DNA from: a phage
DNA length: 64,000 nt
Sequence record: NC_094493.1
Strand: one strand, 5' to 3'
A program made the position numbers and the translations under genes. Below, piece by piece: positions 1 through 61,235 of the stretch. How positions within the stretch are numbered: position 1 is the first letter of the stretch; each line of letters begins with the position of its first letter. The notes beneath the pieces were generated by a model that saw only the letters and a list, made by a program, of their open reading frames with translations, had not been told where the DNA came from and did not search any database.

Positions 1-1212
1 ATAAGCGATCTGCAGCAGAAGCGAATGCCTGACTGCAAGATACCTATGAAAATCAGCAATCAGGACGACATTAAGCGATACCTGATCAGTGCTGGTTGGC
101 TTCCGACAATGTGGAGAACTAAGGATGTAACTAAAGACAGCAAGAAGAAAGCTCTACCTGATGCAGATGTTGATGCACGAGTATATGCATACATGGACGA
201 GCTTTTAGAGTCAGAGTATTGTGACCTAATTATCAACTTCTGGAACAAAACTGATGCTAAGTTTCAGACAACAGTGCACAAGTTCCGAAGCTTTCCTAAC
301 TCCGAAAGGATTAAAAAGGAAGTATTCGGGAAAATACGTAGAAAAGCTAGGGCACTTATTACTTCTCCGCAACTGAAAGATACGTTTGGACACCTATGTC
401 CGAATCTTGAAAAATTGAACGGAGAGATGGCTAAGGATATCGTCTTGTGGTTATCCTTGCGAAACCGCAGATCGGTCCTTGATCCAATCAAGGAGGATAA
501 GGTTGATACTGGTCTTCTTAATCACCCACGCTTGAAGATTGACCATAAGCTTCCTGCTAAAAGCTCCGGATTAACAAACACTTCCAGACAGAAACACAGC
601 ATTTGTGCAAACATGCCTAAACCCTCTCCTAAAGTGGTTATGGGTAAGGAGATGCGTAGCTTGTGGGGTGTTCCTCCTGGATACTTTGAGATCGGTATTG
701 ACGGGTCCAACTTAGAGCAGCTTATCGGGGCTTGGGGTGCCTTTGAGTTCGACAACGGCTTGTATTATGATGTTGTAAGTAACGGGGACGCACACCAAAA
801 CAATGCTGAGGCATATACAAAAGTAGCAGGCAGAGAGGTGTCTCGTAACGACGGTAAACCTATCACGTATGGGGTTATGTACGGGGCACAAAAAGATAAA
901 GTTGCAGATATGCTGGACATCTCTCCAGAGTTGGGACAAAGGGTAATCGATGCACTCTGGGATGCCAACCCTGGTCTTAAGGGGCGCAAAGAGGATCTGG
1001 AGAAATTCTGGGAAGCAACAGGTAAGAAGTTTATCTACTCTTTTGATGGTCATGCTATCTGGACCCGATCTAAACACTCTTTACTTAATGCATACCAACA
1101 GAATGGTGGTGCATCGCTGTGTGACTTGGTTGGGATACTTATGCACCACCAAATGGTGAAGCGTGGGTGGTACGATGAAGGTGTTCGTCGTATTATTTAT
1201 TACCATAAATAA
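1..1212 (+). CDS. DNA polymerase, family A (Pol I/T7-like), C-terminal region; 5' end lies outside the window
   Basis: Frame is open from base 1. Motif A-like IDGSNLEQL and motif B-like RxxxxGKxITYGVMYG; segment after motif B aligns by eye with T7/Klenow up to just before motif C. No HDE motif before the stop. Confidence 0.65.
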   Translation: MSDLQQKRMPDCKIPMKISNQDDIKRYLISAGWLPTMWRTKDVTKDSKKKALPDADVDARVYAYMDELLESEYCDLIINFWNKTDAKFQTTVHKFRSFPNSERIKKEVFGKIRRKARALITSPQLKDTFGHLCPNLEKLNGEMAKDIVLWLSLRNRRSVLDPIKEDKVDTGLLNHPRLKIDHKLPAKSSGLTNTSRQKHSICANMPKPSPKVVMGKEMRSLWGVPPGYFEIGIDGSNLEQLIGAWGAFEFDNGLYYDVVSNGDAHQNNAEAYTKVAGREVSRNDGKPITYGVMYGAQKDKVADMLDISPELGQRVIDALWDANPGLKGRKEDLEKFWEATGKKFIYSFDGHAIWTRSKHSLLNAYQQNGGASLCDLVGILMHHQMVKRGWYDEGVRRIIYYHK

Positions 1213-1458: not shown

Positions 1459-1479
1459 CTTAACGACCTACCTGAACTA

Positions 1480-1836
1480 TTGGATGAGTACCAACTTCAA
1501 GTGCCTGACACACCGAAGTATAAGACTGTGTACACCTTCGACACAATTGAAGAACTGGAAGCATTTAAGGCAGAGCAGGAAGCCAAACTTCATGTGTTCG
1601 ACGGTCATAAGTACAAAAAGGCACGCAAGGATGAGGACGGAAACGAAGTGGTTGACAGAGACGGAAACACGGTGTACGATCCTATCCTGAACGATAACGG
1701 AAAGCTTGAACTTATCTGGAGCCCTGTGGGTGAAATGGTGGTGCATTGCTTCTGGCAAGCTTCTAAAATGATGGGAGTCCCGTTCCAGATCACAGGTGAA
1801 TACTTGTGTGGTAGTAACTGGGGTGATTGTCACTAA
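1480..1836 (+). CDS. DNA polymerase C-terminal segment (second ORF or exon 2)
   Basis: Same frame as 1-1212. Ends GVPFQITGEYLCGSNWGDCH, resembling family-A termini (T7 ...GPNWAICH, Klenow ...GENWDQAH). Listed start is TTG; frame is open back to 1459. Confidence 0.45.
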   Translation: MDEYQLQVPDTPKYKTVYTFDTIEELEAFKAEQEAKLHVFDGHKYKKARKDEDGNEVVDRDGNTVYDPILNDNGKLELIWSPVGEMVVHCFWQASKMMGVPFQITGEYLCGSNWGDCH

Positions 1837-20849: not shown

Positions 20850-23290
20850 GCTCTTCCCCCTACCATAAACGGCCCTACCTGGCAAGTGGAATAATTGACG
20901 AGCCATCAATCCCACACACTGTACAAATATACATGTAAAATAGCTATTGCATAACCTTTCATTGTGTGGTAGCAGGGCTATTTTTACCCGTTTTCCCTTC
21001 CAAAATTGCACGTAATGCCGCTATTGCACAAATTTTAACCTGATGCACATCTCCAATATCTTGTCAACAACTAAAAATCTTTATAAGTCATACACTTACA
21101 CAACATAGAAAGCGTGTCCTACGCGAAAAATCGAGTATAACTATAGCCGCCAGATCTCAGAATTCACGTACGCACGCCATTCTATAGCCTGCAAAGTATT
21201 TATTCCAACCACAGAATAACGGAATAGTCAATACCTGCATAAAATAATTATTCGTGTAAACTGCATAACATAAATCAGCTCAGGTGTCAACATTTTTCGT
21301 AAACAGTCCGAAATTATCACGATGAGTTATCATAAACAGAGAAATCTTTAGTCGTCTAATGTTTACTGTACATTACTATACTGACTGGAATCATTAGATG
21401 ACTAAGAGAAAGATAAGAAATAATTAATAATGTGATTATTTTACCTGTAACAATAAGGCAACTATGCAAACGAATGGCATGGCGCGACGGAGTCGCGACA
21501 TAATATAAAAGCAGTAACCATCACCCCCGTGATAGTTTGTCTGCAATCTATTAATCAGATCATAGTTGCCTTGTATTTAGTTAATCATGACATAACAAGC
21601 AAGGCAACTATAGATCTTCTAATAGTTGCCCTGCTTTTATATTATGTCATAGAAACACCCGAAGGGGTGACCAAAGGTCACCTGGCATAGCCAGCGAAAG
21701 ATTATTAACTTGCTAATCGTTATCATGCAAACGAATGGCATGGCTTATAATTTTTGAGCAAATAGTCTATACGTGAACAGTGAGGCATGCAATAGTAACA
21801 ATTGTTATTATATCCAGTGTTTAGTTTGCCCAGTGTGTCACTATTATGTCATATTATGTCACAGTATGTCAGACAAGTTTTTCTCCTCTTTGTCAAGTGC
21901 TGCATGAAAAATTTACAAGCTGGTATGGTAGCATTTTTGCGGTCCTGTTTACATTCAGTAATGTATGTATAATCCTTGTTGTGTGGGCGTTTAGACGTCT
22001 AGACGGTTGGAAGTCCACAGGTCAATATCTAATCTATCGGCTGCTAACTATATCCCACACAAATAGTAAGAAATATGATTGTTATATGCGTAAACAGTAA
22101 CTCATGTTATCAATCCCTGTATGTATCGCCAGTGGTGCGCATAATGGGTATTATGTTAAATTGCCCGTAATGATAATGGTTCTCACAATGATATGTATTC
22201 TCATTCCCCCACACAAAATAGATTGCAAATGTTGTGCCACTATGTGAACGGCCTCACCTATTAATTTGCCTCACTGCCTCGATATTTGAGAATTGTTATA
22301 AGAATGAGAATGATTCCCATTTCGTCCGCCTGGCAGCACTCCTGTAGGACAAGCACAAAATCGTGGCATAGCTGGACCTGTTCAGATATTTCTGGCTGGC
22401 TCTTCAGGTCTGTGTGGGAAAAGCCAACCCCCTCCGGCGGCGGGGAGGGTGTCAATTAAAAAATTTATGGGGTATATGAAGCGCTCTTCAGGTAAGGCAT
22501 GTACTATGGGATGAAACCCTCTTCAGGCAATGATATTTGTGGGTGTGATATTTGCTGGAAAGCCAGATATGACGGGACTCCCGGCGGGGCAGGGGTAGTA
22601 CAGACAGGGAAAATATGGGGATGTAGTTGGGTGAATTGATCGGGCAGGTAGAGTACGGAATATGTTACAAGTATGTTAAATATGGAGGGTGAATATCTGC
22701 AGGATTTGTGTGTAAAATCAAAGACTTAAGTAGTGTTGTGGTATTTTCTATAAATAATTCAAGTTTAATAGGTAATATTTGTCTCTATCCACTTTGTGTG
22801 GTAAACAAATTCAAATGAGATTGGTTTACAAGTGTATACATAATATGCAAATTAAAGATACAAGAAACCCCCCTCCCCCTTCGGCTACCATTCACCTTTT
22901 CCTCTGACTGGTACTTAAACACTTATTCAGACTCTTCAGGTTATCACCCATACACCATATGGCAGTGACTGGTGTCCTCCGGCCCCTCTTTCGTCACCCG
23001 TCCGCTTCGCCATGCTAATGCCATAGCCAAATGTTCGGTTGTTCACCCTGTTCACTCAGGTGTATCTCCATACCCCTTCAAACCGAAGAGAACAGAAAAC
23101 CCGAATTACTCGGTAAAAGAAAAGAGAAGAACTTAATTTTATCAGGATAGGCAAGAATGTCAAGGCATGACTGCTCACTAAACAAGCAAACAGTCATGTG
23201 TGGGAGGTAAGTGATTGTGGTGGTAGGAAATTTAGTTGAAAGATGTGTTATAGGTGCTTCCAGCACTTTAGCCTGGCAGCTAATTGTGTG
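20850..23290. other. ~2.4 kb non-coding, repeat-rich convergence region between the + and - gene blocks
   Basis: No convincing ORF. Short direct repeats (AACGAATGGCATGGC x2; GGCAACTAT/ATAGTTGCC in both orientations; TATGTCA x3; CTCTTCAGG x3); GC hairpins around 22430 and 22580. Confidence 0.5.
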
Positions 23291-35021: not shown

Positions 35022-35554
35022 CATTTCAAATCTGCCTCTGGTGGTGCCAACCACATAAATGGCGGCAAGTTTAGACGGTTTTTCTTGTCCCATACAAAAT
35101 ATGCATATGCCTGCCCATCCGTTCTACCATTGGATTGGAATGACGGGCGCTTAGATATTGTGATCACAGTGGTAGGTGCATTATCAAGCCACCATTCAAA
35201 TCTGGCCTTGCTTTCCAGAAAATTAAGACGCAAAAGCATAATAACTACGTCGGCATCTTTCAACGCCTTGTCCACAAACTCACGAGCCAGGCTGTACGGC
35301 GGGTTGGTGATAATACAGTCAACATGGTTGTATTCTGTATTCAGATAGTCAACACCTTCTTGGATTTCTCCCCATGCAGATCCTAATGGCATACGGGAGT
35401 AGAACACACCTGAGGCACTATTCCTGCAAGGCTCTAAGTAGGTCCAGTCTTCTGGGAACGTAATAAGGTCATACAGCCCTTCTGCACACCACTCCGGTGT
35501 CACATACTCATCGTAGGCGTTACGTTGTTCATCAGGTTTTCTAGCACAAGTCAT
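35021..35554 (-). CDS. DNA methyltransferase (amino-methyltransferase, NPPY motif)
   Basis: IITNPPYS catalytic motif IV of N6-adenine/N4-cytosine methyltransferases; 177 aa. Confidence 0.55.
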   Translation of the reverse strand: MTCARKPDEQRNAYDEYVTPEWCAEGLYDLITFPEDWTYLEPCRNSASGVFYSRMPLGSAWGEIQEGVDYLNTEYNHVDCIITNPPYSLAREFVDKALKDADVVIMLLRLNFLESKARFEWWLDNAPTTVITISKRPSFQSNGRTDGQAYAYFVWDKKNRLNLPPFMWLAPPEADLK

Positions 35555-35564
35555 GCAAATCTCC

Positions 35565-35596
35565 AGATCATAAAAGCCCTCCGAAGAGGGCTTTAG
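35565..35596 (-). terminator. Putative intrinsic terminator
   Basis: - strand hairpin agccctcttcggagggct followed by TTTAT. Confidence 0.5.
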
Positions 35597-35605
35597 AATT
35601 AATGT

Positions 35606-36655
35606 TTAAGCTTCTTCGACAATTCCTGCACCCAGGATTTTTTCATTGAGCTCTTTTGCTGTTTTAATGATATTGTCCATCAGACGCTTGCGGGTCTTAT
35701 CTTTCACCTTAACCTCTTCACCGCCGTTCAGAGTAGTCTTCAATTGAGACAGAATATCCTGAAGTTCAACGACAGAGAATCTCTGCAGATCTTCTGAAGT
35801 AATCTCACCCAGGGCAATTCTGACGGTCTCGCCACTTTCCATCTGCAGATTCAGGAACACAGTGTGAACATCACCTTTCGAACCACCCGCTTTTGCAGAT
35901 TCAACCGCATGAACTAACTCATCTAAAGATGTGCACTGGTGAATCTCCGGAAGACCTGCTTCACCTAACACGCCTTCTTCATCACCTTTTGCCAGAAGCT
36001 TTTTCGGTTTTTGTCCGTTCTGGATGCGTTGTATGTTGCCTTCATCCAGAATAATAGCTCCAGTGCGTGCTGCCAGCTCTTCTCCGTCCAACCACACTTC
36101 GCCACCAGCTGTGATGGATGCGATCTCATCTTCTGTTAGCACCCCACCGTAGTATTTTTCGATCAGGCGTTCAAAACGTTTTTTCCAGTAGCTGACCTGA
36201 GTATTCATGTTCACACCGTTACCATAAGTGCCACCTTGATAGTAGTGGAACATAAACTCTGTGTCCGGAGCCACAGTACGTTCTTTACAACCAAGCCATA
36301 AGATTGTTCCAGCAGAGCAGCACATCCCTTCAGCATGTGCAACAACGCTTGCCTGAGACTCTCGGAATGCCTGCAGATAAGCCATTGCAATGTGCACGCA
36401 ACCCCCAGGGCTATTGATGATCACCCGAATGCTTTCTTCCGGCTGAGCCATACGGATCGTCTGCAGACGAGACATATGATCTTGTAAGTCTTCCAAATCG
36501 TCGATATAAAGAACGTGGTCAACAACAGGTGTTGGGTAGCTGTATGTTTCCATGATACCGCCCGGCATACCAAACATTTTATTACTCATAGGTTCGAAAC
36601 CGTTCTGTTTTTCTTTCATGCCGTGTACCATGGCTCTGCGAGGTGTTAAATTCAT
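35606..36655 (-). CDS. ClpP-family serine peptidase with N- and C-terminal extensions
   Basis: VINSPGGCV...GMCCSAG (Ser site) ...FMFHYYQGG (His) aligns with ClpP INSPGG...GQAASMG...MIHQPLGG. Confidence 0.6.
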   Translation of the reverse strand: MNLTPRRAMVHGMKEKQNGFEPMSNKMFGMPGGIMETYSYPTPVVDHVLYIDDLEDLQDHMSRLQTIRMAQPEESIRVIINSPGGCVHIAMAYLQAFRESQASVVAHAEGMCCSAGTILWLGCKERTVAPDTEFMFHYYQGGTYGNGVNMNTQVSYWKKRFERLIEKYYGGVLTEDEIASITAGGEVWLDGEELAARTGAIILDEGNIQRIQNGQKPKKLLAKGDEEGVLGEAGLPEIHQCTSLDELVHAVESAKAGGSKGDVHTVFLNLQMESGETVRIALGEITSEDLQRFSVVELQDILSQLKTTLNGGEEVKVKDKTRKRLMDNIIKTAKELNEKILGAGIVEEA

Positions 36656-36715
36656 GAGAAATCCTTAATATTGGAAGTTGAAAGCTATTTATTTAAACCT
36701 GATTCACATTTACCT

Positions 36716-37027
36716 TTATTTAGCAATCACTATGGAATACTTACGATTGTCAGAAGCATCACAACTCAATGATTGCCAGTCTACCACATACCACGTATCA
36801 TTGTCAACAATTACTTTATCGCCTGTTCTGTAGCAAGTGCTGCTTTCAATAATTCTAGACTCGATAAAGAATCTGTGTCGGCGCTCACGTAGCAACGCTA
36901 AGTTAATTATATTACCACCGCTGTCCTTGGTCCACACATTCTTGGATCCCTTATTTGCCAAAATTGTCTCTCCGTTATAGACAAACAGGCAGTATATTTT
37001 ATTCAGTTTCTCTTGTATTGTAGCCAT
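36716..37027 (-). CDS. hypothetical protein
   Basis: ORF with its own promoter at 37056-37084. Confidence 0.5.
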   Translation of the reverse strand: MATIQEKLNKIYCLFVYNGETILANKGSKNVWTKDSGGNIINLALLRERRHRFFIESRIIESSTCYRTGDKVIVDNDTWYVVDWQSLSCDASDNRKYSIVIAK

Positions 37028-37055
37028 ACTGTCCTTCTCTCTGTTTTGTCCGATA

Positions 37056-37084
37056 ATAATATCTAAAGCTTACCTATTTGTCAA
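37056..37084 (-). promoter_or_regulatory. sigma70-like promoter (- strand)
   Basis: - strand reads TTGACA, 17 bp spacer, TATTAT. Confidence 0.5.
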
Positions 37085-37128
37085 CAACTGTTTTAGATAT
37101 TTAAGGGTGGAATAACCACCCTTCTGTA

Positions 37129-37917
37129 TTACTCGGAAACAGGGGTCCAAATATGATTTGCACGATCCTCAATAAGATTGAGTGCGATCTGACGACCCAA
37201 CCCAGAACGAACGACATCGTCTGGACTATCAAAGCTGATCATTCCAACCTCAGGATCTGGATGACGAGTAAAGAAATCCGTCACCCATGCAAGGCCAGAT
37301 TTACCAGGGATGTCACGTTGGCTATTATCACCCATAATTACAAGGGTGGCTTGATCAGAGATCCTTGTGATAATTGACAACATTTCTTCAGGGTTAGTTT
37401 GCTGTGCCTCGTCAATCAGGACAAAGCATCGCTCATCGAAACTACGACCACGAATGCTTTCAACTTCACAAATCTCGATACGGCTGTTCTGACCGTCTCC
37501 CAGCATTGCGGCAAAAGCACCTTTGCCAACACGACGACAAATCGTGTCCATCATGCTTCGAAGATAGGGCCACAGTTTCTGCATTGCATTTCCAGGTTTA
37601 AATCCTGAAGTCTTTCCTGTCTGAACGTAAGGACGTGCAACAATAATCTTATCAATCTCGTTCTTACGCAGAAGATCACCTGCATATGCAGATGCCATGA
37701 ATGTCTTACCGGATCCAAACACACCGTTTACAATAATAATCTTACGTGACCCTAGATAATCAAGATACTTTTGCTGCTTCTTATTCATTGGTCGGAGAGC
37801 TGGAGCGGTGTGCTCTCTTTCGTCAGCAAATTTCTCAGCAGCCTTACGCAGGCGATCAGATTTGCGAGCCTCTCTAGCTTCATCACGCATGCGTTTTGTT
37901 TCTTTAGCTCGACCCAT
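37129..37917 (-). CDS. phoH: PhoH-like ATPase
   Basis: Walker A GVFGSGKT; PhoH-type conserved blocks (IVARP, DEAQ, GDxxQ). Confidence 0.8.
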   Translation of the reverse strand: MGRAKETKRMRDEAREARKSDRLRKAAEKFADEREHTAPALRPMNKKQQKYLDYLGSRKIIIVNGVFGSGKTFMASAYAGDLLRKNEIDKIIVARPYVQTGKTSGFKPGNAMQKLWPYLRSMMDTICRRVGKGAFAAMLGDGQNSRIEICEVESIRGRSFDERCFVLIDEAQQTNPEEMLSIITRISDQATLVIMGDNSQRDIPGKSGLAWVTDFFTRHPDPEVGMISFDSPDDVVRSGLGRQIALNLIEDRANHIWTPVSE

Positions 37918-37955
37918 GTTGGGACTCCTTTCAGATTGAGATGTGCCAAGTACTT

Positions 37956-38306
37956 TTACTGCAACAGTTTTTCAATAGCCGCTTCCATGCTGCTTGCAAC
38001 AGCCTGAACTCGGATATTCATCTCTTCTTGGTGGATCAGCTCCTTAAGCTCTTTAATGGTAAATTCTTTAGAGAAACCTTCCACCATAATCTTGTGCAAG
38101 GCTTCTTGCGTGTCTACTTGCAAGAACTTTTCCAGTTTGTTGGCAGAGGCTTCTAAATCAGCCCGAATACGAGGGTCATCTGTGCGATTCAGCATTAGGC
38201 GTAAGCCATCAAGATTAGTAGAAATAGCATCTGCATGTTGAGTAACTAACCGTGGCAAAATGAGATCTACAAACTTATTAGCCAAATCGATACGTTCTTG
38301 TGTCAC
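37956..38306 (-). CDS. hypothetical protein
   Basis: ORF with GTG start overlapping the upstream small ORF stop. Confidence 0.45.
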   Translation of the reverse strand: MTQERIDLANKFVDLILPRLVTQHADAISTNLDGLRLMLNRTDDPRIRADLEASANKLEKFLQVDTQEALHKIMVEGFSKEFTIKELKELIHQEEMNIRVQAVASSMEAAIEKLLQ

Positions 38307-38416
38307 TGTTGCACCCCCTCTTCATCTTCATGATGTTTCTTTTCACGCTTGTGTTTTTTCTTAAGCTCAAGCGCAATCTCTTTCTTGTACGCCTTCTTCA
38401 AGGCTTTTTTAGCCAT
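38303..38416 (-). CDS. small Lys-rich protein (37 aa)
   Basis: Strong RBS aggaggtgccaa ATG; MAKKALKKAYKKEIALELKKKHKREKKHHEDEEGVQQ; below ORF-track cut-off. Confidence 0.35.
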   Translation of the reverse strand: MAKKALKKAYKKEIALELKKKHKREKKHHEDEEGVQQ

Positions 38417-38478
38417 TTGGCACCTCCTCTGCTTTCATTACGGCAATTATAACCAACTCAACAAAGCTTTGTCAACAA

Positions 38479-38952
38479 CTAGTCTACCTGAACCCAACCG
38501 CCTGATACTTTTTTAAACATTCTTTGGTTATCACTGCCTCGGAACGGTTTCTTGGTTGGTAAATCTTTTACATACTTACCGTCAATGATGATATCAGCCA
38601 GTTTAAGAACATCACTAGAGATATGGTCAAATGTGAACCCAGTATATACAAGAATAGTTTTCTTGTCACCAAATTTTTCCTTAATTTTCTCCATCAGGCT
38701 AATAATATCTGGCTCATTATAGTATGCTAAGGGTTCTCCACCCAGCAGAGAGATACCGCACACAGACGGGTTATCTAAATCTGACAAGATTTTTTGCAAG
38801 TCTTCTTCAGTAAACTCTCTCCCCTTATCTTTTGACCAAAATGCCTGATTAAAGCAACCATGGCAAGCGTGTGGGCACCCAGATACCCATAAGGCAGTTC
38901 TAATACCTGGCCCTTCGGTGTAAGATATTTCTGTGTATCCGGCAATATTCAT
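38479..38952 (-). CDS. nrdG: Anaerobic ribonucleotide reductase activating protein (radical SAM)
   Basis: CPHACHGC radical-SAM cluster motif; directly downstream of nrdD. Confidence 0.75.
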   Translation of the reverse strand: MNIAGYTEISYTEGPGIRTALWVSGCPHACHGCFNQAFWSKDKGREFTEEDLQKILSDLDNPSVCGISLLGGEPLAYYNEPDIISLMEKIKEKFGDKKTILVYTGFTFDHISSDVLKLADIIIDGKYVKDLPTKKPFRGSDNQRMFKKVSGGWVQVD

Positions 38953-45771: not shown

Positions 45772-46755
45772 TTAACCTTTCACGAAGTGGTTATTAAGCA
45801 GTTGTCTGTGCTGAACCCACCCACAAAAGTTGGCAGACCAGAATTTACCATCACGGTCTTGATGGGTTACACCTTCCTGCCAAGTACTGATGTCTTGTGT
45901 GATTTCACATGAAGACAGGTAGTAGTTTAAACGTTCCATTGCGTTATCGTGATCCATAGGTGTTGCCTGGTGCTCGTAAGGGCTTGCATGAATACGATCC
46001 CCACCAATCAATTTTTTAGCCACACTATCTGCCTTTTCAAACGTGCTGTCAATATTTCGATAAGATACTTGTGCACAGCAACTAGCACTGATAGACAGAG
46101 CTTCTTTAGTATCGAGAATGCAGAGCTTTCCTTCTGTGTCACGTACAGCGTAGTTAAACTCTCCGTCCAAATAAACGTGCTCTACATATGGGGTGTGCCA
46201 TTGACCCGGTTTAAGGATTTCAGGAGTGCTATTCTCAAGAGCCTCCCACATACAATTAGCTAACATCTGAATCGTAGGATCCGCATCGTGCCAGCAACGG
46301 AGGTGGAAAAAATTATTCCACTCGGTGCTTGTTACAACTGTTTTCATGCGCTGGAACGGCTCCACTAAGCGGTTACATACTTGCTTATGGTAACCAGCAA
46401 GGGCGAACTTCTCTGCATGCCAAGCGGCGTTTTTTGCAGCTTCTTTCCAAAACTCTTCAGGAGTTAGCTCCATGTCAGTGTACTCTACACGGATCTTTTG
46501 ATCGTGTTCCCCACCATCTTCCATTCCTCGCTTATTTACACCGAAGCGAACTGGCATTGCCGGATTCTCCACAATCTGTTGCAGCATCTTGCCGACAGGT
46601 ACTGCACGGGAAGACATGGCGTTTCGGCTGAACACTCGGTGCGTCATAAGCTCTGAGTGAATAATTCGAGGATACTCTAGTTCAAAAGTGGTGATACGCT
46701 TACCTTTCTCGGAAATGCTGTCAGCAATAATCTTTGCAGTGCACAGTTTTAGCAT
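45772..46755 (-). CDS. thyX: Flavin-dependent thymidylate synthase (ThyX-like)
   Basis: THRVFSRNAMSSRA resembles the ThyX RHR-x7-S signature; sits in the nucleotide-metabolism cluster. Confidence 0.5.
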   Translation of the reverse strand: MLKLCTAKIIADSISEKGKRITTFELEYPRIIHSELMTHRVFSRNAMSSRAVPVGKMLQQIVENPAMPVRFGVNKRGMEDGGEHDQKIRVEYTDMELTPEEFWKEAAKNAAWHAEKFALAGYHKQVCNRLVEPFQRMKTVVTSTEWNNFFHLRCWHDADPTIQMLANCMWEALENSTPEILKPGQWHTPYVEHVYLDGEFNYAVRDTEGKLCILDTKEALSISASCCAQVSYRNIDSTFEKADSVAKKLIGGDRIHASPYEHQATPMDHDNAMERLNYYLSSCEITQDISTWQEGVTHQDRDGKFWSANFCGWVQHRQLLNNHFVKG

Positions 46756-46955
46756 TATTTAGCTCTCCTTGTTTTAATTTTGGAAATTTCGTCTGGGTTT
46801 ATGTTGGCCTTAAATGCAAGGTATCTGTTGAACATGTCAGAGCACATATCTTGGGTGATCCTAGAGGCATACACTAGCTTACCTCCTAGATCATACACCT
46901 CTAGCCAGTCACCGTATCTGACTACAGGATCGCCACCTTTAGAACATCTGCCCAT
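46755..46955 (-). CDS. hypothetical protein
   Basis: ORF, coupled. Confidence 0.45.
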   Translation of the reverse strand: MGRCSKGGDPVVRYGDWLEVYDLGGKLVYASRITQDMCSDMFNRYLAFKANINPDEISKIKTRRAK

Positions 46956-46956
46956 T

Positions 46957-47550
46957 TCAAATACCTTCTAAAAACTTTCCTATTTTATACCAGCTATTGG
47001 CGGTATAGTCAACACTGACCTTTAACTCCTCGAATTGCTCATAAGGCGTATCTTTTAGGATTTTAATAACTTCAGGTCGTGAAGCGAATTGGTTAAGGTA
47101 TTCATGCCTGTCGTCAATTATAACATCTACAGCCACATTTCCTTTGAAATGTGTGGCGTAGAAGCCGTGACCCTGGGTGTGATCGTCCAGATCCATAAAA
47201 TCACTGGTCCAACGCTTTAAGAACCTTGATTTAGATGCAAGGTGACCTTTCTTGCATACCGAGATAAATGCAAGCTTGTGACCACGAGCCACCAAATCTT
47301 TCATAACCTCAATAGCCCCCTCTTCAGGCTTAAGAAAGTCGTAGAGGAATGGGTCACTCCAGAAATCAAAAGGCCCTATGATGTTTTCTTTGGGGCGATC
47401 AGGCCAATACTTTGACAGATCGTAATACATCAGTCCATTAGAAGGTTTAGCGACTGTCTTACTGGCTGGACCATACAAACGCTCCAACCACTCCCACCAT
47501 GCTGTTCCTGAATCTACCAGTGTCAAATCTACATCAATTCCGATTAACAT
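46957..47550 (-). CDS. HAD-family phosphatase, putative 5'-(deoxy)nucleotidase
   Basis: N-terminal DxD motif (IGIDVDLTLVDSG) typical of HAD nucleotidases; next to dNMP kinase. Confidence 0.45.
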   Translation of the reverse strand: MLIGIDVDLTLVDSGTAWWEWLERLYGPASKTVAKPSNGLMYYDLSKYWPDRPKENIIGPFDFWSDPFLYDFLKPEEGAIEVMKDLVARGHKLAFISVCKKGHLASKSRFLKRWTSDFMDLDDHTQGHGFYATHFKGNVAVDVIIDDRHEYLNQFASRPEVIKILKDTPYEQFEELKVSVDYTANSWYKIGKFLEGI

Positions 47551-55472: not shown

Positions 55473-56756
55473 TTATTCCAGCACCTCCCAAGTGTCTGGG
55501 TTAACATTTCGGACGCAGATACCGACAGGGAATTGGTAGTTGTTGTCTTCTGTCCTTGCTTGATATTTGAAGGTGACAAACTTGCCGATCATTTCCTGCA
55601 TTCTGTCATAGCTACGCTCCTCGTGCGTACCTTTCATCTTCATTTTAACAACAATACCTTCCTTGTCAACACAGATAAGAACACCTTCATCATTCTTATC
55701 TTTCTCAACGTCAATAACTTTCACCTCTGCGTCGTTGAACTTTTTCCATTTCAATGCTTCAGATGTTCTCTGACCGTACTCATATTTACCACAGAAGTTA
55801 CGCATAATGGTACCTTCATATCCTTCGGACATGAATATACCAACAGATTCTTCGCAATGATCAACTGTGTACGCAAGCTCTGCGTCAACAACCTTGATAT
55901 GGTCAAGCATCAGAGTGGTAACGGTATCCTCTGCATCCATAAGATCCTTGCAGCGTCCAGACTCTGTTTCGGGATCCCACCACACCTTGTCGCTAGGAAT
56001 ATCAAAAATGTGATACTCCAGATCGTAGCTACAGTACCCACCGTAACGCAAATCATCACGAACAGGCTCAACATCGACAGGAATATCTACCTTGTTGAAG
56101 TTTTTATATGTTGATAAGCCGGACTTAATTGCGGCATGACGGCGTTTTTTATCTGCCTCATAGTCTTTATCGATCTCGGCCTGAATCTCTTCCTGTGTGC
56201 GCCACCGTTTAGCAAGAGACACTATTTTCTGCAAAGGAAGACCATGAATGTATAGTTCCCCATCAAGTTGTTTAATCCCAGTGGTAGAATGGAAAGAACG
56301 AAGTTGCTCTAAAAGCTTTCCTTGAATAGGGTAGGACTTATTACCACGGGAAATAAATTTAGGCTCACCATTTTGGAAAACAACAAGCAGACGAAGGCCA
56401 TCTAACTTACGCAAGATCCAGCAAGGTAGTTTAAGTGCCTTGCCACGCTTCAGGTAGTCATGCACCAGCATGGGTAAAAGATCAACACCCTGCTCGCAAT
56501 CTTCCATGTTTTCAACATACCCCAGACGGACTTGTTTTTCCCACTTGCTGATAGCCTCAAGCTCGGCCTGTTGCTCAGCTGTAGTCTCATTGGCACGACC
56601 TACGTTCTTAGGTGTGCATACCGTCTCTTTGTACTGCAATTTACCGTCAAGCTTGCCAAACTCTACGATAACCTTTTCGCCATCAGTGAATACTTTCCAC
56701 TGTTGGTAGCTGCCATCTTTGTTCAGTGCGTACAGTGTTGTTTTGATTTGATGCAT
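55473..56756 (-). CDS. ATP-dependent DNA ligase
   Basis: Nucleotidyltransferase motif I KLDG (ILRKLDGLRLLV); 427 aa. Confidence 0.6.
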   Translation of the reverse strand: MHQIKTTLYALNKDGSYQQWKVFTDGEKVIVEFGKLDGKLQYKETVCTPKNVGRANETTAEQQAELEAISKWEKQVRLGYVENMEDCEQGVDLLPMLVHDYLKRGKALKLPCWILRKLDGLRLLVVFQNGEPKFISRGNKSYPIQGKLLEQLRSFHSTTGIKQLDGELYIHGLPLQKIVSLAKRWRTQEEIQAEIDKDYEADKKRRHAAIKSGLSTYKNFNKVDIPVDVEPVRDDLRYGGYCSYDLEYHIFDIPSDKVWWDPETESGRCKDLMDAEDTVTTLMLDHIKVVDAELAYTVDHCEESVGIFMSEGYEGTIMRNFCGKYEYGQRTSEALKWKKFNDAEVKVIDVEKDKNDEGVLICVDKEGIVVKMKMKGTHEERSYDRMQEMIGKFVTFKYQARTEDNNYQFPVGICVRNVNPDTWEVLE

Positions 56757-57320: not shown

Positions 57321-57382
57321 AACTAACTACCTCGCTGCATACTTTCCATAATAAGTAAAGCCGGGATTACCCGGCTATGTTG

Positions 57383-58096
57383 TCAAATATACTCTGTTAC
57401 ATCCTTGAAGCTCGAAGGCTTCATGATCTTACCTTTACTGTCAAGGAATATGATAACTTTATTACCGTTGTAGAATTCTTCCTTAGCAACAAAACCTTCA
57501 TATCGACCATCAAAGCGTCGCTCAAGATCTTTAATCTCCAACTCGATGAGTTGTTCAGCAGGCATATCTGCACTGGCACCGTGTGAATACCGTAGATGGT
57601 TGACCCGTGCAAACTTGCTGTCATTCGATTTGAGAACCTTACGCATCATCCCGCACACATCGCCGCGAAGCTGGAACAGCAAAGCTGTTGACAACTCTGC
57701 TAAGCGGTAAGCAGACGCTCTTTGCTTAGAGGTGTTTTTCGCAGCGATCAGTGTATCATAGAACTCACCAATCTTGAACTTAATACCTCGTGGATTATCA
57801 AACAGGTTTGACCACTTTTCGTGATTGTCATTAACAAGATAAGCGGCATAACTTGTGACAACATGAAGATCGCAGGCCTCTTTTAGCAAGTGATCTCCAC
57901 CATCACCTTTCTCCAGCTCTTCCAAAACTTCATTGAACTCTTCCTCAATGAAGCTAAGCTGTAATTCGAATGGTGTGTATGATTTTTTCACCTTAGCTGC
58001 CACACGGTTCCAGTTTTCCACCCAGTTGGCAGACCAAAGGTAGTTTTCAGGCTGAGACAGTTTTTCCAGGTTGTCGATCAGTTTAGTATTCAGCAT
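57383..58096 (-). CDS. MazG-like nucleoside triphosphate pyrophosphohydrolase domain protein
   Basis: EEEFNEVLEELEKGD...KEACDLHV matches the MazG EExxE...E...D metal-binding helix pattern. Confidence 0.5.
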   Translation of the reverse strand: MLNTKLIDNLEKLSQPENYLWSANWVENWNRVAAKVKKSYTPFELQLSFIEEEFNEVLEELEKGDGGDHLLKEACDLHVVTSYAAYLVNDNHEKWSNLFDNPRGIKFKIGEFYDTLIAAKNTSKQRASAYRLAELSTALLFQLRGDVCGMMRKVLKSNDSKFARVNHLRYSHGASADMPAEQLIELEIKDLERRFDGRYEGFVAKEEFYNGNKVIIFLDSKGKIMKPSSFKDVTEYI

Positions 58097-58109
58097 TAAA
58101 GGTCTCCTT

Positions 58110-58871
58110 TTAAAGTTCCATAAAGTTTTCTACAGTTTCAATAAATACTTTATCAGAGAAAGCGTCAACAGCACCGTTAAACCATACAGGGATCCCGCGA
58201 TCCTCATATTGATAAAGGTCGCTACGTGAAATGCCACTTCCATCTGCACTCTGCGAATCATACTTGTTTACAATCAGCAGTTTTGTGCCTTTACAAGTAG
58301 CAGGAAACAATTCCCAGTTAAAATTAATAACTGTGTTAGAACAACCTACCAGGATAACCATATCATTGCTTGTGAGAGATGTCAACAGGTCATACATGTC
58401 TGTATACTTAGGAGCAACCTCACCGAAGAACACTACATTGGGCTTAACCCAGGTATACTTACCTGTATCTACCTCCGTGTATCCGATATTTTTAATTACA
58501 TCATTACCTTCAGCATCTTCGTAGGTGATTTCAGGCAAATACCCGTGGACATGTAAAATATCTTCATGTTTTACACCAGCACGCTCCAGCAAATCATCTA
58601 CATTGGTGGTAAGGTTGATCACACGACCAGACCAGCGGGAATACCACTCAGCGATCCGAAGATGTGCAAGGTTAGGATCAACACTGCCCAGAGCTACACG
58701 ACGTGCATTGTAAAAGTCATGCACCTTATAGTAGTTCTTGGCAAAGGTGTGGATGTTGCACACCTCATCTATGCTGAAATTCTCCCACATTGCAGTACTA
58801 CCAGATCGGAAAGTGGGAATACCAGATTCAGCGCTCAAACCAGCACCGGAGATAATAATCAGTCGTCGCAT
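58110..58871 (-). CDS. Sir2-family NAD-dependent protein (zinc-ribbon-less sirtuin-like)
   Basis: GAGLSAESGIPTFR, TTNVDDLLERAG, HVHG, PNVVFFGE, VILVGCS sirtuin motifs; no CxxC pairs. Confidence 0.65.
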   Translation of the reverse strand: MRRLIIISGAGLSAESGIPTFRSGSTAMWENFSIDEVCNIHTFAKNYYKVHDFYNARRVALGSVDPNLAHLRIAEWYSRWSGRVINLTTNVDDLLERAGVKHEDILHVHGYLPEITYEDAEGNDVIKNIGYTEVDTGKYTWVKPNVVFFGEVAPKYTDMYDLLTSLTSNDMVILVGCSNTVINFNWELFPATCKGTKLLIVNKYDSQSADGSGISRSDLYQYEDRGIPVWFNGAVDAFSDKVFIETVENFMEL

Positions 58872-58879
58872 AAGTGCCC

Positions 58880-59230
58880 TCAGTAGATGTTTTGTTTAAT
58901 CTCTATTCCAAACTTTTTAAACGAGTCAGCTGCAAGCATGAATTTACGAGCCGCTGATGGATTAGAAGTATGTACGAAAATCTTCACGTTGTCAACCACG
59001 GGAGGCTTACCGAATACAAATTTTTCCTCCAACATGGATAGGCAATCGTATCCTTCGAATACTTCTCCTAGGTCGTTGTCCATATGCCACTCAGAAACGC
59101 GTCTGTAGAGCTTTCCCTTATCGTTAATAAAATCCATAAACTCGGAGGAATTCTTCAGCCAAACAGCGTCTGGGAGCCCGTAATTTGACGGATCTCTTAA
59201 GTCATCTAGCCACACAATCAACTTCTTCAT
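58880..59230 (-). CDS. hypothetical protein
   Basis: 116 aa ORF between the Sir2-like and RNA ligase genes. Confidence 0.45.
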   Translation of the reverse strand: MKKLIVWLDDLRDPSNYGLPDAVWLKNSSEFMDFINDKGKLYRRVSEWHMDNDLGEVFEGYDCLSMLEEKFVFGKPPVVDNVKIFVHTSNPSAARKFMLAADSFKKFGIEIKQNIY

Positions 59231-60162
59231 TGCATATAGTTCTCGTTGTGGAAATAGTAATCAAGTATCTCACGGCGTTCCTGCTCCAGGAGGCAGTTCC
59301 ACACATCCTCTGTGTAATTGCTACGAATGAAGTTTACCATGCCGTAAAACTCTTCGTCAACACGTTTAAAGATATCATCATCCCAAATCTTCCAAGCTTT
59401 ACCCCTCATTACGGCCTTCCGTGCCAGATAGTATGGAGACTTGATCTTCAGCTGCAGATCATAAGGGTAGTAAGGCTTACGAATCATATACCCTTCACCT
59501 CTTGTTTCTGCAGCTAATTCTTTTGCATAGCTGAACGGAATTTCACGCACAGTGTGAGGACGTTTTGCACCAAGGTATTTGGCAATCCCATCTAAAGCTG
59601 CTTCTGGTAGCATTATTCCAGAATCATTATATCTGCAACCTATCAAATATGCGCCATGATCTTCCTGAACAATATGCGGATCTGAAGGGTGACAAATTTC
59701 AAACATGAATGTCATGTTTTCATTGCCCATAACCTTCTTGATAAGATCTAAATTACCACATTGCTCTTGGATGGTTTCCTTTGCAAGGTTACAATATGGA
59801 GAATCAAGAGACCCGGTTGTTGAGAACAATAGTTCACCTTTATGAGATGATACCACACCGAGGAATCCGTTCTTTTTCTCTACCGCAGTAACAAGTTTAC
59901 TGTCCGGTAGGTTGGTGGAGTTTTCTCCTAAGTTGAATACTTTTGTGAAAGGCCATGCCACAACATTCCCCTCATTGCCAACAACAATACCTCGGCACTC
60001 CAGTAAACGCGGAGACAAATGCCACAGATTGTTGTAGAATACTTTTCTGGCATATTTATAGATCTTTAATCCAAGATCTGGATAATACCGACTGGTTACA
60101 AGACCTTTGTCTACTAGGTCATCTGCATTAAAATACTTCATCATACGTTCCTCATTTGTCAT
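59227..60162 (-). CDS. RNA ligase, T4 Rnl1-like
   Basis: LLECRGIVV...KVFNLGEN...EKKNGFL...LFSTTGS aligns with T4 Rnl1 ALECRGIMF...KFFNLNEN...TKEDGSL...LFKSKGS; motif I reads KKNG rather than KxDG. Confidence 0.6.
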   Translation of the reverse strand: MTNEERMMKYFNADDLVDKGLVTSRYYPDLGLKIYKYARKVFYNNLWHLSPRLLECRGIVVGNEGNVVAWPFTKVFNLGENSTNLPDSKLVTAVEKKNGFLGVVSSHKGELLFSTTGSLDSPYCNLAKETIQEQCGNLDLIKKVMGNENMTFMFEICHPSDPHIVQEDHGAYLIGCRYNDSGIMLPEAALDGIAKYLGAKRPHTVREIPFSYAKELAAETRGEGYMIRKPYYPYDLQLKIKSPYYLARKAVMRGKAWKIWDDDIFKRVDEEFYGMVNFIRSNYTEDVWNCLLEQERREILDYYFHNENYMQ

Positions 60163-60262
60163 TTTGTCAGTCTATCCTGCCACACAAATAACCTAGTGTC
60201 AACACTTGAAATTAACAAAACAGTTAGGTATACTATCATTAAAATTAAAACGGAGGGTTGCT

Positions 60263-60673
60263 ATGTCTAAAATGCTATATATCGTGCGTGGTCTGCCAGG
60301 GTCTGGCAAATCAACACTGGCAAATGCGCTATCTTTAGAAGGTCTGTATCCACATTTTGAGAACGACATGTTCTGGTATGACGATGACGGCAATTACAAC
60401 TGGGATGCAAGTAAAGTAACACTCGCAGCAAAATGGTGCAAAGATAACGTAGAAGATATGATGCGTATGGGATACGACCGTATCGTGGTAAGTAATACGT
60501 TTACAAAAGAAAAACATGTGCAGGAATATGTTGACATGGCAATCAGTCACGGGTATAGTTATACCGTGATCGTGGTTGAAAACCGCCACGGTAATAAAAG
60601 CATTCATGATGTTCCAGACAAGGTTGTGGATCGTATGGAACGCCAGCTTAAAAACTGCATTAAACTTAAATGA
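60263..60673 (+). CDS. P-loop polynucleotide kinase-like protein
   Basis: Walker A GLPGSGKST resembles T4 Pnk kinase N-terminus; RBS ggaggg; divergent from the RNA ligase gene. Confidence 0.5.
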   Translation: MSKMLYIVRGLPGSGKSTLANALSLEGLYPHFENDMFWYDDDGNYNWDASKVTLAAKWCKDNVEDMMRMGYDRIVVSNTFTKEKHVQEYVDMAISHGYSYTVIVVENRHGNKSIHDVPDKVVDRMERQLKNCIKLK

Positions 60674-60680
60674 GGAATGT

Positions 60681-61235
60681 ATGAAATACTTTGTAACAAG
60701 CGACACACACTTTCTCCACCAGCGGGTCATGGAGTTTGATTCATGTCAAAAACACAGATCTCAGTATGATCACAATCTTGACAGTATGAATGCGGGAATC
60801 ATCACCAAGTGGAACTCTGTTGTGTCACCTGCAGACACTGTGTTTCACTTGGGAGATATTGCGTGCACTAATGATAAGAATATCAACAAATTGCTCCCAG
60901 ATGTTCTAAATATGTTGAACGGACATATTATTCTTGTTCGTGGTAACCATGACACAAGGACGACTGTCAGAATTATGAAAGAGTTCGGTCATGAGGTTGT
61001 AGATTATTACGAGCTTCGCCACAACAAGAATTTGATCTGTATGAGCCATTACCAGTTTGCAAAGTGGAACAGAAAGCCTCACGGATCAGTCCAACTGTTC
61101 GGTCATGCTCACGGAACCACACAGCAGTTGTTTGGCAGGCAGTTTGATGTCGGTTGGGATGTGTGGGGGAGACTCTTACCATTAGAAGAGGCATACCGTA
61201 TTGCAATGAGTCTTGCTATTGACAGCGGGGAGTAA
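60681..61235 (+). CDS. Calcineurin-like metallophosphoesterase
   Basis: SDTHF, HLGDI, GNHD, GHAHG metallophosphatase motifs; RBS aaatgagga. Confidence 0.65.
   Translation: MKYFVTSDTHFLHQRVMEFDSCQKHRSQYDHNLDSMNAGIITKWNSVVSPADTVFHLGDIACTNDKNINKLLPDVLNMLNGHIILVRGNHDTRTTVRIMKEFGHEVVDYYELRHNKNLICMSHYQFAKWNRKPHGSVQLFGHAHGTTQQLFGRQFDVGWDVWGRLLPLEEAYRIAMSLAIDSGE

What the first reader, a model, noticed from the sequence alone, without database searches (positions are those of the whole stretch)
57383..58871. Adjacent Sir2-like and MazG-like genes: possible NAD+ / alarmone manipulation
A zinc-ribbon-less Sir2-family protein is followed by a MazG-like NTP pyrophosphohydrolase. Sir2 domains can act as deacylases or as NAD+ hydrolases, and MazG homologues can degrade (p)ppGpp or modified nucleotides. 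Together with the macro-domain gene this suggests the phage carries several enzymes acting on NAD-derived or signalling nucleotides.
Basis: partly seen in the sequence, partly recalled or inferred. Interest (0 to 1): 0.5.

Follow-up and report, generated by a model that had tools for sequence, protein, structure and literature searches.

The report
Phage sirtuin in tRNA-repair operon
The two genes are real and correctly named, but they end a four-gene RNA-repair operon of an rV5-type E. coli phage that was described by computer analysis in 2022, and they are not a conserved pair, so this is a rediscovery with an untested mechanism.

Summary
Both ORFs exist exactly as reported, on the minus strand. 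The window is a Vequintavirus (rV5/Murica/JES2013-like).

**Sir2 (58871..58110, 253 aa).** It is a CobB/SIRT5-like class III sirtuin. Every catalytic motif and the YxxR dyad are invariant, none of the four zinc cysteines is present, and the small ribbon module is still modelled confidently.

**Context.** The genes are cistrons 3 and 4 of Rnl1 RNA ligase – cREC – Sir2 – MazG-like – terminator, divergent from a kinase–phosphoesterase pair. Iyer et al. 2022 described this neighbourhood with phage V5 as prototype and proposed the sirtuin as a Tpt1/KptA-like RNA phosphate remover.

**My census.** It supports the link between Sir2 and RNA end-healing genes (42 of 61 loci). The MazG-like gene tracks the DNA ligase block and persists without Sir2. 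The macro gene lies 50 kb away. The (p)ppGpp hydrolase Atd1, from a related phage, is not an orthologue.

**Verdict.** Observation confirmed, interpretation partly supported, already known, no biochemistry exists.

The parts
59227..60162 (-). T4 RnlA-type (Rnl1) RNA ligase, first cistron of the operon
   Evidence: Pfam RNA_lig_T4_1 55.5 bits; phrog_562 4e-66; KxNG motif I visible in the translation; its stop overlaps the cREC start by 4 nt
58880..59230 (-). cREC (cyclic-phosphate-processing receiver-like) protein, second cistron
   Evidence: Pfam PF20274 cREC_REC 54.9 bits against cutoff 27; phrog_1479
58110..58871 (-). Class III (CobB/SIRT5-like) sirtuin without zinc ligands, third cistron
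   Evidence: Pfam SIR2 98.2 bits; invariant GAGxS, FR, Y54-x-x-R57, T-N90-V-D92, H109-G, FGE and no Cys4 site; AF2 pLDDT 89.6; Foldseek best hit CobB, TM 0.83
57383..58096 (-). Two-domain all-alpha NTP pyrophosphohydrolase (MazG/PRA-PH/dimeric-dUTPase-like core, residues ~1-156, plus a conserved alpha/beta C-terminal module), fourth cistron
57359..57376 (-). Intrinsic-terminator-like hairpin closing the four-gene unit
   Evidence: 7-bp stem with 6 GC pairs followed by a T-rich tail; annotated as a terminator at the same place in phage Murica
60263..60673 (+). P-loop (AAA_33, polynucleotide-kinase-like) kinase, divergently transcribed
   Evidence: Pfam AAA_33 41.8 bits; phrog_2071 and phrog_505 polynucleotide kinase; the start is taken from the Murica annotation
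60681..61235 (+). Calcineurin-like metallophosphoesterase downstream of the kinase
   Evidence: Pfam Metallophos and Metallophos_2, 27.5 bits each; weak TIGR04123 ligase-associated PdeM hit; GD and GNHD motifs visible in the translation
55473..56756 (-). ATP-dependent DNA ligase; the gene the MazG-like gene is most consistently linked to across phages
   Evidence: Pfam DNA_ligase_A_M and OB_2; a DNA ligase lies within about 3 kb of the MazG-like gene in all 24 loci that carry one

Best explanation
The two genes are the last two cistrons of a tightly packed operon (Rnl1 RNA ligase - cREC - Sir2 - MazG-like - terminator) in a nucleic-acid end-repair block of a Vequintavirus. The Sir2 protein belongs to a phage-specific clade derived from CobB/SIRT5-type class III sirtuins. 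It has kept all the NAD+ chemistry and the anion-binding YxxR dyad and has lost the zinc ligands. Its most likely role is an NAD+-consuming step in repairing tRNAs cut by host anticodon nucleases. The inferred pathway is as follows. cREC opens the 2',3'-cyclic phosphate. The sirtuin transfers ADP-ribose from NAD+ onto the remaining 2' (or 3') phosphate and releases it as ADP-ribose cyclic phosphate plus nicotinamide, as Tpt1/KptA does. The kinase phosphorylates the 5'-OH, and Rnl1 seals the break. The MazG-like protein is a genuine all-alpha NTP pyrophosphohydrolase. It is an accessory gene of the DNA-ligase/replication block and not a dedicated partner of Sir2, and it most likely cleans or shapes the (d)NTP pool. 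Shown here: gene structure, family assignments, residue conservation and neighbourhood statistics. Inferred: every biochemical step.
For: Operon: 4-nt overlap, then 8-nt and 13-nt gaps, then a terminator. Family and residues; phage Y54 maps to CobB Y92 through the 6rxs Y92A variant. Sir2 clade context in 61 loci: 30 have HAD_SAK_2 (the 'Swiss-army-knife' RNA repair HAD) directly downstream and 12 have Rnl1 with cREC and/or kinase. Published prediction for this exact neighbourhood, with phage V5 as prototype: PMC9503650 section 3.7.3. Precedent for NAD+-dependent removal of terminal 2'/3' phosphates by Tpt1 enzymes: PMC6573784 (title and abstract). A NAMPT gene lies directly upstream of Sir2 in L061, and NAD+ salvage genes sit next to the block in Ro1 and CB7, consistent with real NAD+ turnover. 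MazG-like gene. It lies near DNA ligase in 24 of 24 loci and persists without Sir2, Rnl1, cREC or kinase in L005, L006, L066-L069 and L071. The four IMG/VR contigs among these (L066-L069) were not hit by the whole-collection Sir2 scan.
Against: No biochemical or genetic data exist for any member of the phage sirtuin clade. The 42 supporting loci come from only two phage lineages (T5-like and V5/Mydo-like), so there are few independent observations. Fourteen of 61 loci show Sir2 with no recognisable RNA-repair neighbour. Sequence and structure are equally compatible with a protein desuccinylase or deacetylase. Kinase, metallophosphoesterase and Rnl1 already form a complete Pnkp-type heal-and-seal set that needs no NAD+. 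From general knowledge, E. coli has its own KptA. The role proposed for the MazG-like protein is weak: it is co-transcribed with the repair genes in this phage, and its substrate is unknown.
Confidence: 0.45

Rival explanations
1. The sirtuin is a conventional protein lysine deacylase (CobB-like desuccinylase or deacetylase). It resets the acylation state of host or phage proteins during infection, and its position in the repair operon is incidental.
For: The best sequence and structure matches are E. coli CobB, Sir2-Af1 and SIRT5. The catalytic His109, the FGE loop and the succinyl-binding YxxR dyad are invariant. Fourteen of 61 loci have no RNA-repair neighbour. Public records annotate it as a deacetylase.
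Against: All four zinc ligands are lost across the whole clade, although from general knowledge canonical deacylases need the zinc site for activity. NCBIfam scores are far below every CobB cutoff (122.6 against 243). The gene is repeatedly linked to RNA end-healing genes in two gene orders that share no partner gene.
Confidence: 0.25
2. One reading: the sirtuin acts as an NADase or NAD+ modulator and the MazG-like enzyme degrades (p)ppGpp or other signalling nucleotides. Together they manipulate host NAD+ and alarmone signalling or counter abortive-infection defences.
For: Atd1, a MazG-like protein from Pectobacterium phage PcCB7V (Certrevirus, same subfamily), hydrolyses ppGpp and protects against TIR effectors (bioRxiv 10.1101/2022.06.09.495361). 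Sirtuins that lack zinc ligands include the defence NADases (general knowledge).
Against: No PADLOC defence-SIR2 model matches, and no defence sirtuin appears among the top 50 structural neighbours. Depleting NAD+ would harm the phage, and relatives carry NAD+ salvage genes. In the close relative CB7, the two short MazG-like ORFs match the window family over only 30-38 columns (hhalign probabilities 0.5% and 63%). A cyanophage MazG has no (p)ppGpp activity (PMC6850273). The two genes are not a conserved pair.
Confidence: 0.12
3. The MazG-like enzyme is an integral member of the sirtuin RNA-repair pathway. One possibility is that it stands in for the Nudix enzyme of the jumbo-phage version and breaks down ADP-ribose-derived by-products. 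Another is that it processes triphosphorylated or adenylylated RNA 5' ends.
For: It is co-transcribed with Rnl1, cREC and Sir2 in V5-type phages. Iyer et al. list it as a component of this neighbourhood. It stays within the same roughly 10-kb block in Mydo-like phages.
Against: It persists in related phages that lack Sir2, Rnl1, cREC and kinase, and it is about 25 kb from Sir2 in ECO340P2. From general knowledge, the characterised members of this superfamily release pyrophosphate from nucleoside triphosphates and are not known to cleave ADP-ribose-type diphosphate bridges.
Confidence: 0.15

Closest known systems
Sirtuin-centred phage RNA-repair neighbourhood, type 2 (Iyer, Burroughs, Anand, de Souza, Aravind 2022, Viruses 14:1977, section 3.7.3; prototypes Escherichia phage V5 and Proteus phage Mydo)
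   Same: Identical gene set: sirtuin, T4-like RNA ligase, cREC, nucleotide kinase, MazG-superfamily pyrophosphatase and calcineurin-like phosphoesterase. The window is 99% identical to phage V5 over the 900-bp stretch compared.
   Different: Nothing differs in the genes. My census adds that the MazG-like gene is not tied to the sirtuin and instead follows the DNA ligase block.
E. coli CobB and human SIRT5 (class III sirtuins, protein deacylases)
   Same: Full-length sequence and fold match (E 1e-29, TM 0.83). The catalytic His, the N/D of the TQNID motif, the FGE loop and the YxxR dyad are all present.
   Different: No Cys4 zinc site. The Q of TQNID is replaced by T. Scores are below all NCBIfam CobB cutoffs. 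It is phage-specific and embedded in RNA-repair contexts.
Tpt1/KptA RNA 2'-phosphotransferase
   Same: The proposed chemistry is the same: a phosphate oxygen attacks C1'' of NAD+, nicotinamide leaves, and ADP-ribose cyclic phosphate is released. The pathway position beside a tRNA ligase, a kinase and a cyclic phosphodiesterase is also the same.
   Different: Unrelated fold (ART superfamily versus Rossmann-type sirtuin), so the analogy is functional only and is untested.
Dimeric dUTPases of staphylococcal phages, with MazG and HisE (all-alpha NTP pyrophosphohydrolase superfamily)
   Different: There is an extra conserved alpha/beta C-terminal module of about 75 residues with invariant K223 and K226. 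No family member hit any Pfam family other than PRA-PH or MazG in meaningful numbers, so none hit the dimeric-dUTPase family. The substrate is unknown.
Atd1 (anti-TIR defence 1), the MazG-like (p)ppGpp hydrolase of Pectobacterium phage PcCB7V
   Same: Same superfamily and same phage subfamily (Vequintavirinae).
   Different: Atd1 is described as a MazG catalytic domain only. Its sequence and the PcCB7V genome were not examined; the comparison used the close relative CB7. There, the short MazG-like candidates (CB7_173, CB7_232) align to the window family over 30-38 columns only, so they are not orthologues.

Membership tests
Sirtuin / SIR2 (Pfam PF02146) | Profile score above the gathering threshold | tested here: met
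   98.2 bits against 24
Sirtuin / SIR2 (Pfam PF02146) | NAD+-binding GAGxS...FR motif, N and D of the TQNID motif, catalytic His in HG, FGE loop | tested here: met
   G9-A-G-x-S, F21-R22, N90, D92, H109-G110 and F149-G-E151 are invariant or at least 90% conserved in 55 clade members and align with CobB
Sirtuin / SIR2 (Pfam PF02146) | Cys4 zinc-binding site in the small domain | tested here: not met
   No cysteines at the CobB zinc positions in any of 55 members; the strand module is retained in the model
Class III sirtuins (CobB/SIRT5 deacylases) | YxxR dyad that binds the acyl carboxylate | tested here: met
   Y54 and R57 are invariant; Y54 aligns with CobB Y92 through the 6rxs Y92A variant
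Class III sirtuins (CobB/SIRT5 deacylases) | NCBIfam CobB model scores above their cutoffs | tested here: not met
   Best is NF001753 (a subfamily model), 122.6 against 243; NF040867 (equivalog), 104 against 320
Class III sirtuins (CobB/SIRT5 deacylases) | NAD+-dependent lysine deacylase activity | not testable with these tools
   Requires an enzyme assay
Defence-associated SIR2 NADases (ThsA, DSR, Sir2-HerA, SPARSA) | Match to PADLOC SIR2 models, or structural proximity | tested here: not met
   No PADLOC hit at E <= 0.01; none among the top 50 Foldseek hits
Macro-linked SirTM ADP-ribosyltransferases | Adjacent macro-domain gene | tested here: not met
   The macro gene is at window 7495-7953, about 50 kb away on the opposite strand
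Sirtuin-centred phage RNA-repair system, type 2 (Iyer et al. 2022) | Sirtuin linked to a T4-like RNA ligase, cREC, nucleotide kinase, MazG and optionally a calcineurin-like phosphoesterase | tested here: met
   All six genes lie within window 57383-61235; phage V5 is the named prototype
Sirtuin-centred phage RNA-repair system, type 2 (Iyer et al. 2022) | The sirtuin removes RNA 2'-phosphate using NAD+ | not testable with these tools
   This is a prediction only; no experimental paper was found
All-alpha NTP pyrophosphohydrolase superfamily (MazG / PRA-PH / dimeric dUTPase) | EExxE(x)n ExxD metal-binding helices | tested here: met
   E52, E53, E56 ... E73-x-x-D76; E53 and D76 are invariant in 60 diverse members
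All-alpha NTP pyrophosphohydrolase superfamily (MazG / PRA-PH / dimeric dUTPase) | Four-helix core fold | tested here: met
All-alpha NTP pyrophosphohydrolase superfamily (MazG / PRA-PH / dimeric dUTPase) | Pfam MazG or PRA-PH profile hit | tested here: inconclusive
   The window protein has no hit, but 41 of 60 family members hit PF01503 and 12 of 60 hit PF03819
Dimeric dUTPase | Sequence-family membership and dUTP specificity | tested here: inconclusive
Atd1-type (p)ppGpp hydrolase | Orthology to Atd1 of PcCB7V | tested here: not met
   Tested on the close relative CB7, not on PcCB7V itself. The CB7 short MazG candidates match the window family profile at hhalign probabilities of 0.5% and 63%, over 38 and 30 columns.

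The most novel reading that the evidence does not exclude
The phage sirtuin is a true RNA-phosphate:NAD+ ADP-ribosyltransferase, a non-homologous analogue of Tpt1/KptA, in which the class III YxxR dyad that binds succinyl carboxylate in SIRT5 and CobB has been re-used to bind an RNA 2' or 3' phosphate. With cREC, the kinase and Rnl1 it would form a complete NAD+-dependent tRNA healing pathway against host anticodon nucleases. The distant macro-domain 'phosphatase' would clear ADP-ribose-1''-phosphate.
Probability: 0.3. Interest if true: 0.75.

Novelty: already known. Interest (0 to 1): 0.33.

Why it matters
If the 2022 prediction is right, sirtuins would gain a new substrate class (RNA phosphate ends), and phages would have a second, independently evolved NAD+-dependent route for repairing tRNAs cut by host immunity. 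That would connect two active fields: tRNA-targeting defence systems and the fight over NAD+. The clade is abundant in T5-like, rV5-like and Mydo-like coliphages that can be manipulated genetically, so the question can be tested directly. As a scan finding, however, it repeats what public annotation and a published comparative-genomics survey already say. The specific claim that Sir2 and the MazG-like protein act together does not survive comparison across phages.

Tried and rejected
1. Sequence search of the MazG-like protein and its close-family profile against PDB: no hits. A 60-member profile gave only a marginal PRA-PH hit (E 0.016).
3. The search for related loci with the broad MazG-like alignment failed because it had no conserved stretch. 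The close alignment found 7 loci.
4. Hypothesis that Atd1 is the orthologue of the window's MazG-like protein: rejected after fetching the whole CB7 genome. This was a proxy test, since the PcCB7V genome itself was not examined.
5. Hypothesis that the sirtuin is a defence-type NADase: rejected on PADLOC and structural neighbours.
6. Hypothesis that Sir2 and the macro gene form a SirTM-like pair: rejected, as they are 50 kb apart on opposite strands.
7. Search for RNA-repair genes beside Sir2 in the 14 'alone' loci: none found.
8. Search for a canonical trimeric dUTPase, to see whether the MazG-like protein might fill that role: none detected.
9. Cluster name look-up for the nearest MazG-like relatives: uninformative.
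10. No tRNA genes in the window; the relative's tRNA cluster lies just beyond the window end.
Full report
**Observation.** The window comes from a Vequintavirus. A 4.1-kb stretch around the finding is 96-98% identical to Escherichia phages phiWec189, Murica, JES2013 and about 120 others. Another stretch is 99% identical to phage V5. The two ORFs lie on the minus strand at exactly the reported limits: 58871..58110 (253 aa) and 58096..57383 (237 aa). Public records already call them 'Sir2 (NAD-dependent deacetylase)' and 'nucleotide pyrophosphohydrolase'.

**The sirtuin.**
- It scores 98.2 bits on Pfam SIR2 and 1.6e-108 on phrog_2162.
- Its closest solved relatives by sequence are E. coli CobB, Sir2-Af1/2 and SIRT5.
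- A confident AlphaFold model (pLDDT 89.6) superposes best on CobB (TM 0.82-0.83), then Sir2-Af1 and SIRT5. No defence-type NADase sirtuin is among the top 50 hits, and no PADLOC model matches.
- Across 55 clade members at 50-93% identity, these residues are invariant or nearly so: GAGxS, F21-R22, N90, D92, H109-G110 and F-G-E151, plus Y54-x-x-R57.
- The CobB Y92A variant 6rxs aligns an alanine opposite the clade's tyrosine. Phage Y54 therefore corresponds to CobB Y92, and R57 to R95. From general knowledge, this dyad binds the distal carboxylate of succinyl-lysine in CobB and SIRT5.
- None of the four zinc cysteines is present in any member, yet the three-stranded small module is modelled at pLDDT 93-95. 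NCBIfam CobB models score far below their cutoffs.
- In short, this is a phage-specific offshoot of class III sirtuins with intact NAD+ chemistry and no zinc ligands.

**The MazG-like protein.**
- The window protein hits no Pfam, NCBIfam or PDB sequence, only phrog_671.
- Its close family is small: 16 clusters, three of them carrying a precomputed PF01503 hit. A whole-library profile search found 163 representatives, mostly 210-245 aa and matching over their full length.
- Of 60 diverse members, 41 hit PRA-PH and 12 hit MazG.
- Invariant residues are E53, D76, N158, K161, K223 and K226. E52, E56, R198, Y199 and P227 are at least 90% conserved. This is the EExxE...ExxD and NxxK signature, plus basic residues in a C-terminal module.
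- The AlphaFold model (pLDDT 76, pTM 0.79) has a helical core (residues ~4-156) followed by a small alpha/beta module.
- Superfamily membership is therefore secure. The substrate is not.

**Context in the window.**
- On the minus strand the genes are packed tightly. The Rnl1-type RNA ligase (60162..59227) overlaps the cREC gene (59230..58880) by 4 nt. An 8-nt gap precedes Sir2 and a 13-nt gap precedes the MazG-like gene. A GC-rich hairpin with a T-rich tail follows at 57376..57359, annotated as a terminator in Murica.
- A P-loop polynucleotide-kinase-like gene (60263..60673) and a calcineurin-like phosphoesterase (60681..61235) are transcribed divergently.
- Two small genes and an ATP-dependent DNA ligase lie downstream of the terminator.
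- The relative's tRNA cluster starts just past the window end.

[quoted passage not shown] They list the sirtuin, a T4-like tRNA ligase, cREC, a nucleotide kinase, a MazG pyrophosphatase and sometimes a calcineurin-like phosphoesterase. They propose that the sirtuin acts like KptA/Tpt1 in removing 2'-phosphates. I found no experimental study of any phage sirtuin of this clade.

**Independent test of linkage.** I collected 61 Sir2-clade loci from IMG/VR and other assemblies and scored their neighbours with local profiles.
- 30 loci, all T5-like, have a HAD_SAK_2 'Swiss-army-knife' RNA-repair phosphatase directly downstream.
- 12 loci, V5- or Mydo-like, have Rnl1 with cREC and/or the kinase.
- 5 loci have only the phosphoesterase and/or DNA ligase.
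- 14 loci have no recognisable partner. Their flanking genes are unknown or unrelated, except for a NAMPT directly upstream in L061.

The association of Sir2 with RNA end-healing genes is real, but it rests on two lineages, plus a third described in the literature.

**The MazG-like gene behaves differently.**
- In all 24 loci that carry it, a DNA ligase lies within about 3 kb.
- It is adjacent to Sir2 only in V5-type genomes.
- In Mydo-like phages the order is Kin-Sir2-DNA ligase-...-MazG-like, 2-3 kb apart.
- In ECO340P2 the two genes are about 25 kb apart.
- In L005, L006, L066-L069 and L071 it sits beside DNA ligase with no Sir2, Rnl1, cREC or kinase within 7 kb. The four IMG/VR contigs among these (L066-L069, 117-140 kb) were not hit by the whole-collection Sir2 scan.

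The Sir2-MazG pairing is therefore a lineage-specific juxtaposition.

**The alarmone idea.** Ho et al. (bioRxiv 10.1101/2022.06.09.495361) showed that Atd1, a MazG-like protein from Pectobacterium phage PcCB7V, hydrolyses ppGpp and blunts TIR-based defence. PcCB7V is a Certrevirus in Vequintavirinae, so I tested for orthology. I used the complete genome of the close relative CB7, because I did not have PcCB7V or the Atd1 sequence.
- CB7 has no Sir2, Rnl1, cREC, kinase or phosphoesterase homologues.
- It has only two short MazG-like ORFs: CB7_232 (120 aa, Pfam MazG) and CB7_173 (about 90 aa, two genes from the RlaP-type nucleotidyltransferase gene).
- These align to the window family over 38 and 30 columns, at hhalign probabilities of 0.5% and 63%.

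Atd1 is thus a superfamily-level precedent, not a relative close enough to transfer function from. A cyanophage MazG has no (p)ppGpp activity and prefers dGTP and dCTP (PMC6850273).

**The macro gene.** It exists (window 7495-7953, + strand; Pfam Macro 25.9 bits; 'phosphatase, contains Macro domain' in Murica). It is about 50 kb away, in a different transcription block.

**Mechanism, inferred.** Host anticodon nucleases leave 2',3'-cyclic phosphate and 5'-OH ends. The most economical assignment gives each operon member one step:
1. cREC opens the cyclic phosphate.
2. The sirtuin uses NAD+ to carry off the remaining phosphomonoester as ADP-ribose cyclic phosphate. Some Tpt1 enzymes do this for terminal 2'/3' phosphates (PMC6573784).
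3. The kinase phosphorylates the 5' end.
4. Rnl1 seals the break.

cREC and the distant macro phosphatase could then clear the ADP-ribose by-products. The invariant YxxR dyad would suit a phosphate as well as it suits a carboxylate.

Against this model, the kinase, the metallophosphoesterase and Rnl1 already form a Pnkp-type pathway that needs no NAD+. The protein also looks in every measurable respect like a deacylase that has lost its zinc.

For the MazG-like enzyme I favour (d)NTP pool cleaning. It has a dimeric-dUTPase-like core, it sits in the DNA ligase/replication block, and no trimeric dUTPase was detectable in the window, in Murica 52.9-126 kb or in CB7 (weak evidence). Confidence is low, because it is co-transcribed with the repair genes here.

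**Verdict.** The feature is already known from annotation and from a published prediction. The open and interesting question, whether a sirtuin can act on RNA phosphate ends, is not new to this scan but can be tested directly.

Noticed in passing
window 1197-1432 (+): A group I intron (Rfam RF00028, 64.7 bits) interrupts the family-A DNA polymerase gene: ORF 25..1212 ends inside it and the next ORF is 1480..1836. The same arrangement is found in phage V5, which has two 'DNA polymerase' CDS. Only 57 of 131 related records cover at least 80% of window 900-1800, so the intron appears to be polymorphic.
   Followed up: partly
window ~21000-23200: A gene-poor region where coding strand and GC skew switch (GC 0.389). 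It holds clustered ATAGTTGCC-type direct and inverted repeats at 21448-21648 and an exact 20-nt repeat at 21464 and 21725. It is a candidate replication origin or regulatory region.
   Followed up: no
window 7495-7953 (+): A macro-domain gene (Pfam Macro 25.9 bits; 'phosphatase' in Murica), about 50 kb from Sir2. It could clear ADP-ribose-1''-phosphate if the sirtuin works like Tpt1, but it is not linked to Sir2 on the genome.
   Followed up: partly
GenBank records MK883718, MH491969, MN850576, MN850612, MN850626, OY979426; protein P0053: Annotation errors have been propagated. The MazG-like gene is labelled 'Sir2-like protein' in several Vequintavirus records and 'RIIA lysis inhibitor' in one Klebsiella phage. 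A Sir2 homologue is labelled 'tail assembly protein' in Klebsiella phage vB_Kpn_3.
   Followed up: no
records MG0656xx ('Campylobacter phage' A147, A135, D1, C14 and others): About 20 unannotated records labelled as Campylobacter jejuni phages are 96-99% identical to E. coli Vequintaviruses over this region. The host label looks doubtful.
   Followed up: no
L004 (Raoultella phage Ro1) 1-1209 and 13608-14114; L077 (CB7) 35096-38932; L061 5057-6490: NAD+ salvage or reconstitution genes (NAPRTase/Nampt, a PRPP-synthetase-like gene, NADAR) lie next to the ligase/Sir2 block in relatives, and a NAMPT lies directly upstream of Sir2 in L061. The window phage shows none in the part of the genome that I read.
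   Followed up: partly
window 60681-61235 (+), with DNA ligase 55473-56756 (-): The metallophosphoesterase has a weak hit to TIGR04123 (ligase-associated PdeM). Together with DNA ligase and the MazG-like gene, it persists in phages that lack the RNA ligase, cREC, kinase and Sir2. The block may therefore be a DNA-end core with an RNA-repair add-on.
   Followed up: partly
L076 (CB7) 46424-47542 (-): The Certrevirus 'nucleotidyltransferase' near the short MazG-like ORF is an RlaP-family 'RNA repair pathway' Pol-beta NTase (Pfam PF10127, 63.7 bits), next to a tRNA nucleotidyltransferase-like gene. Certreviruses may carry a different RNA-repair toolkit in place of the Sir2 cassette.
   Followed up: no
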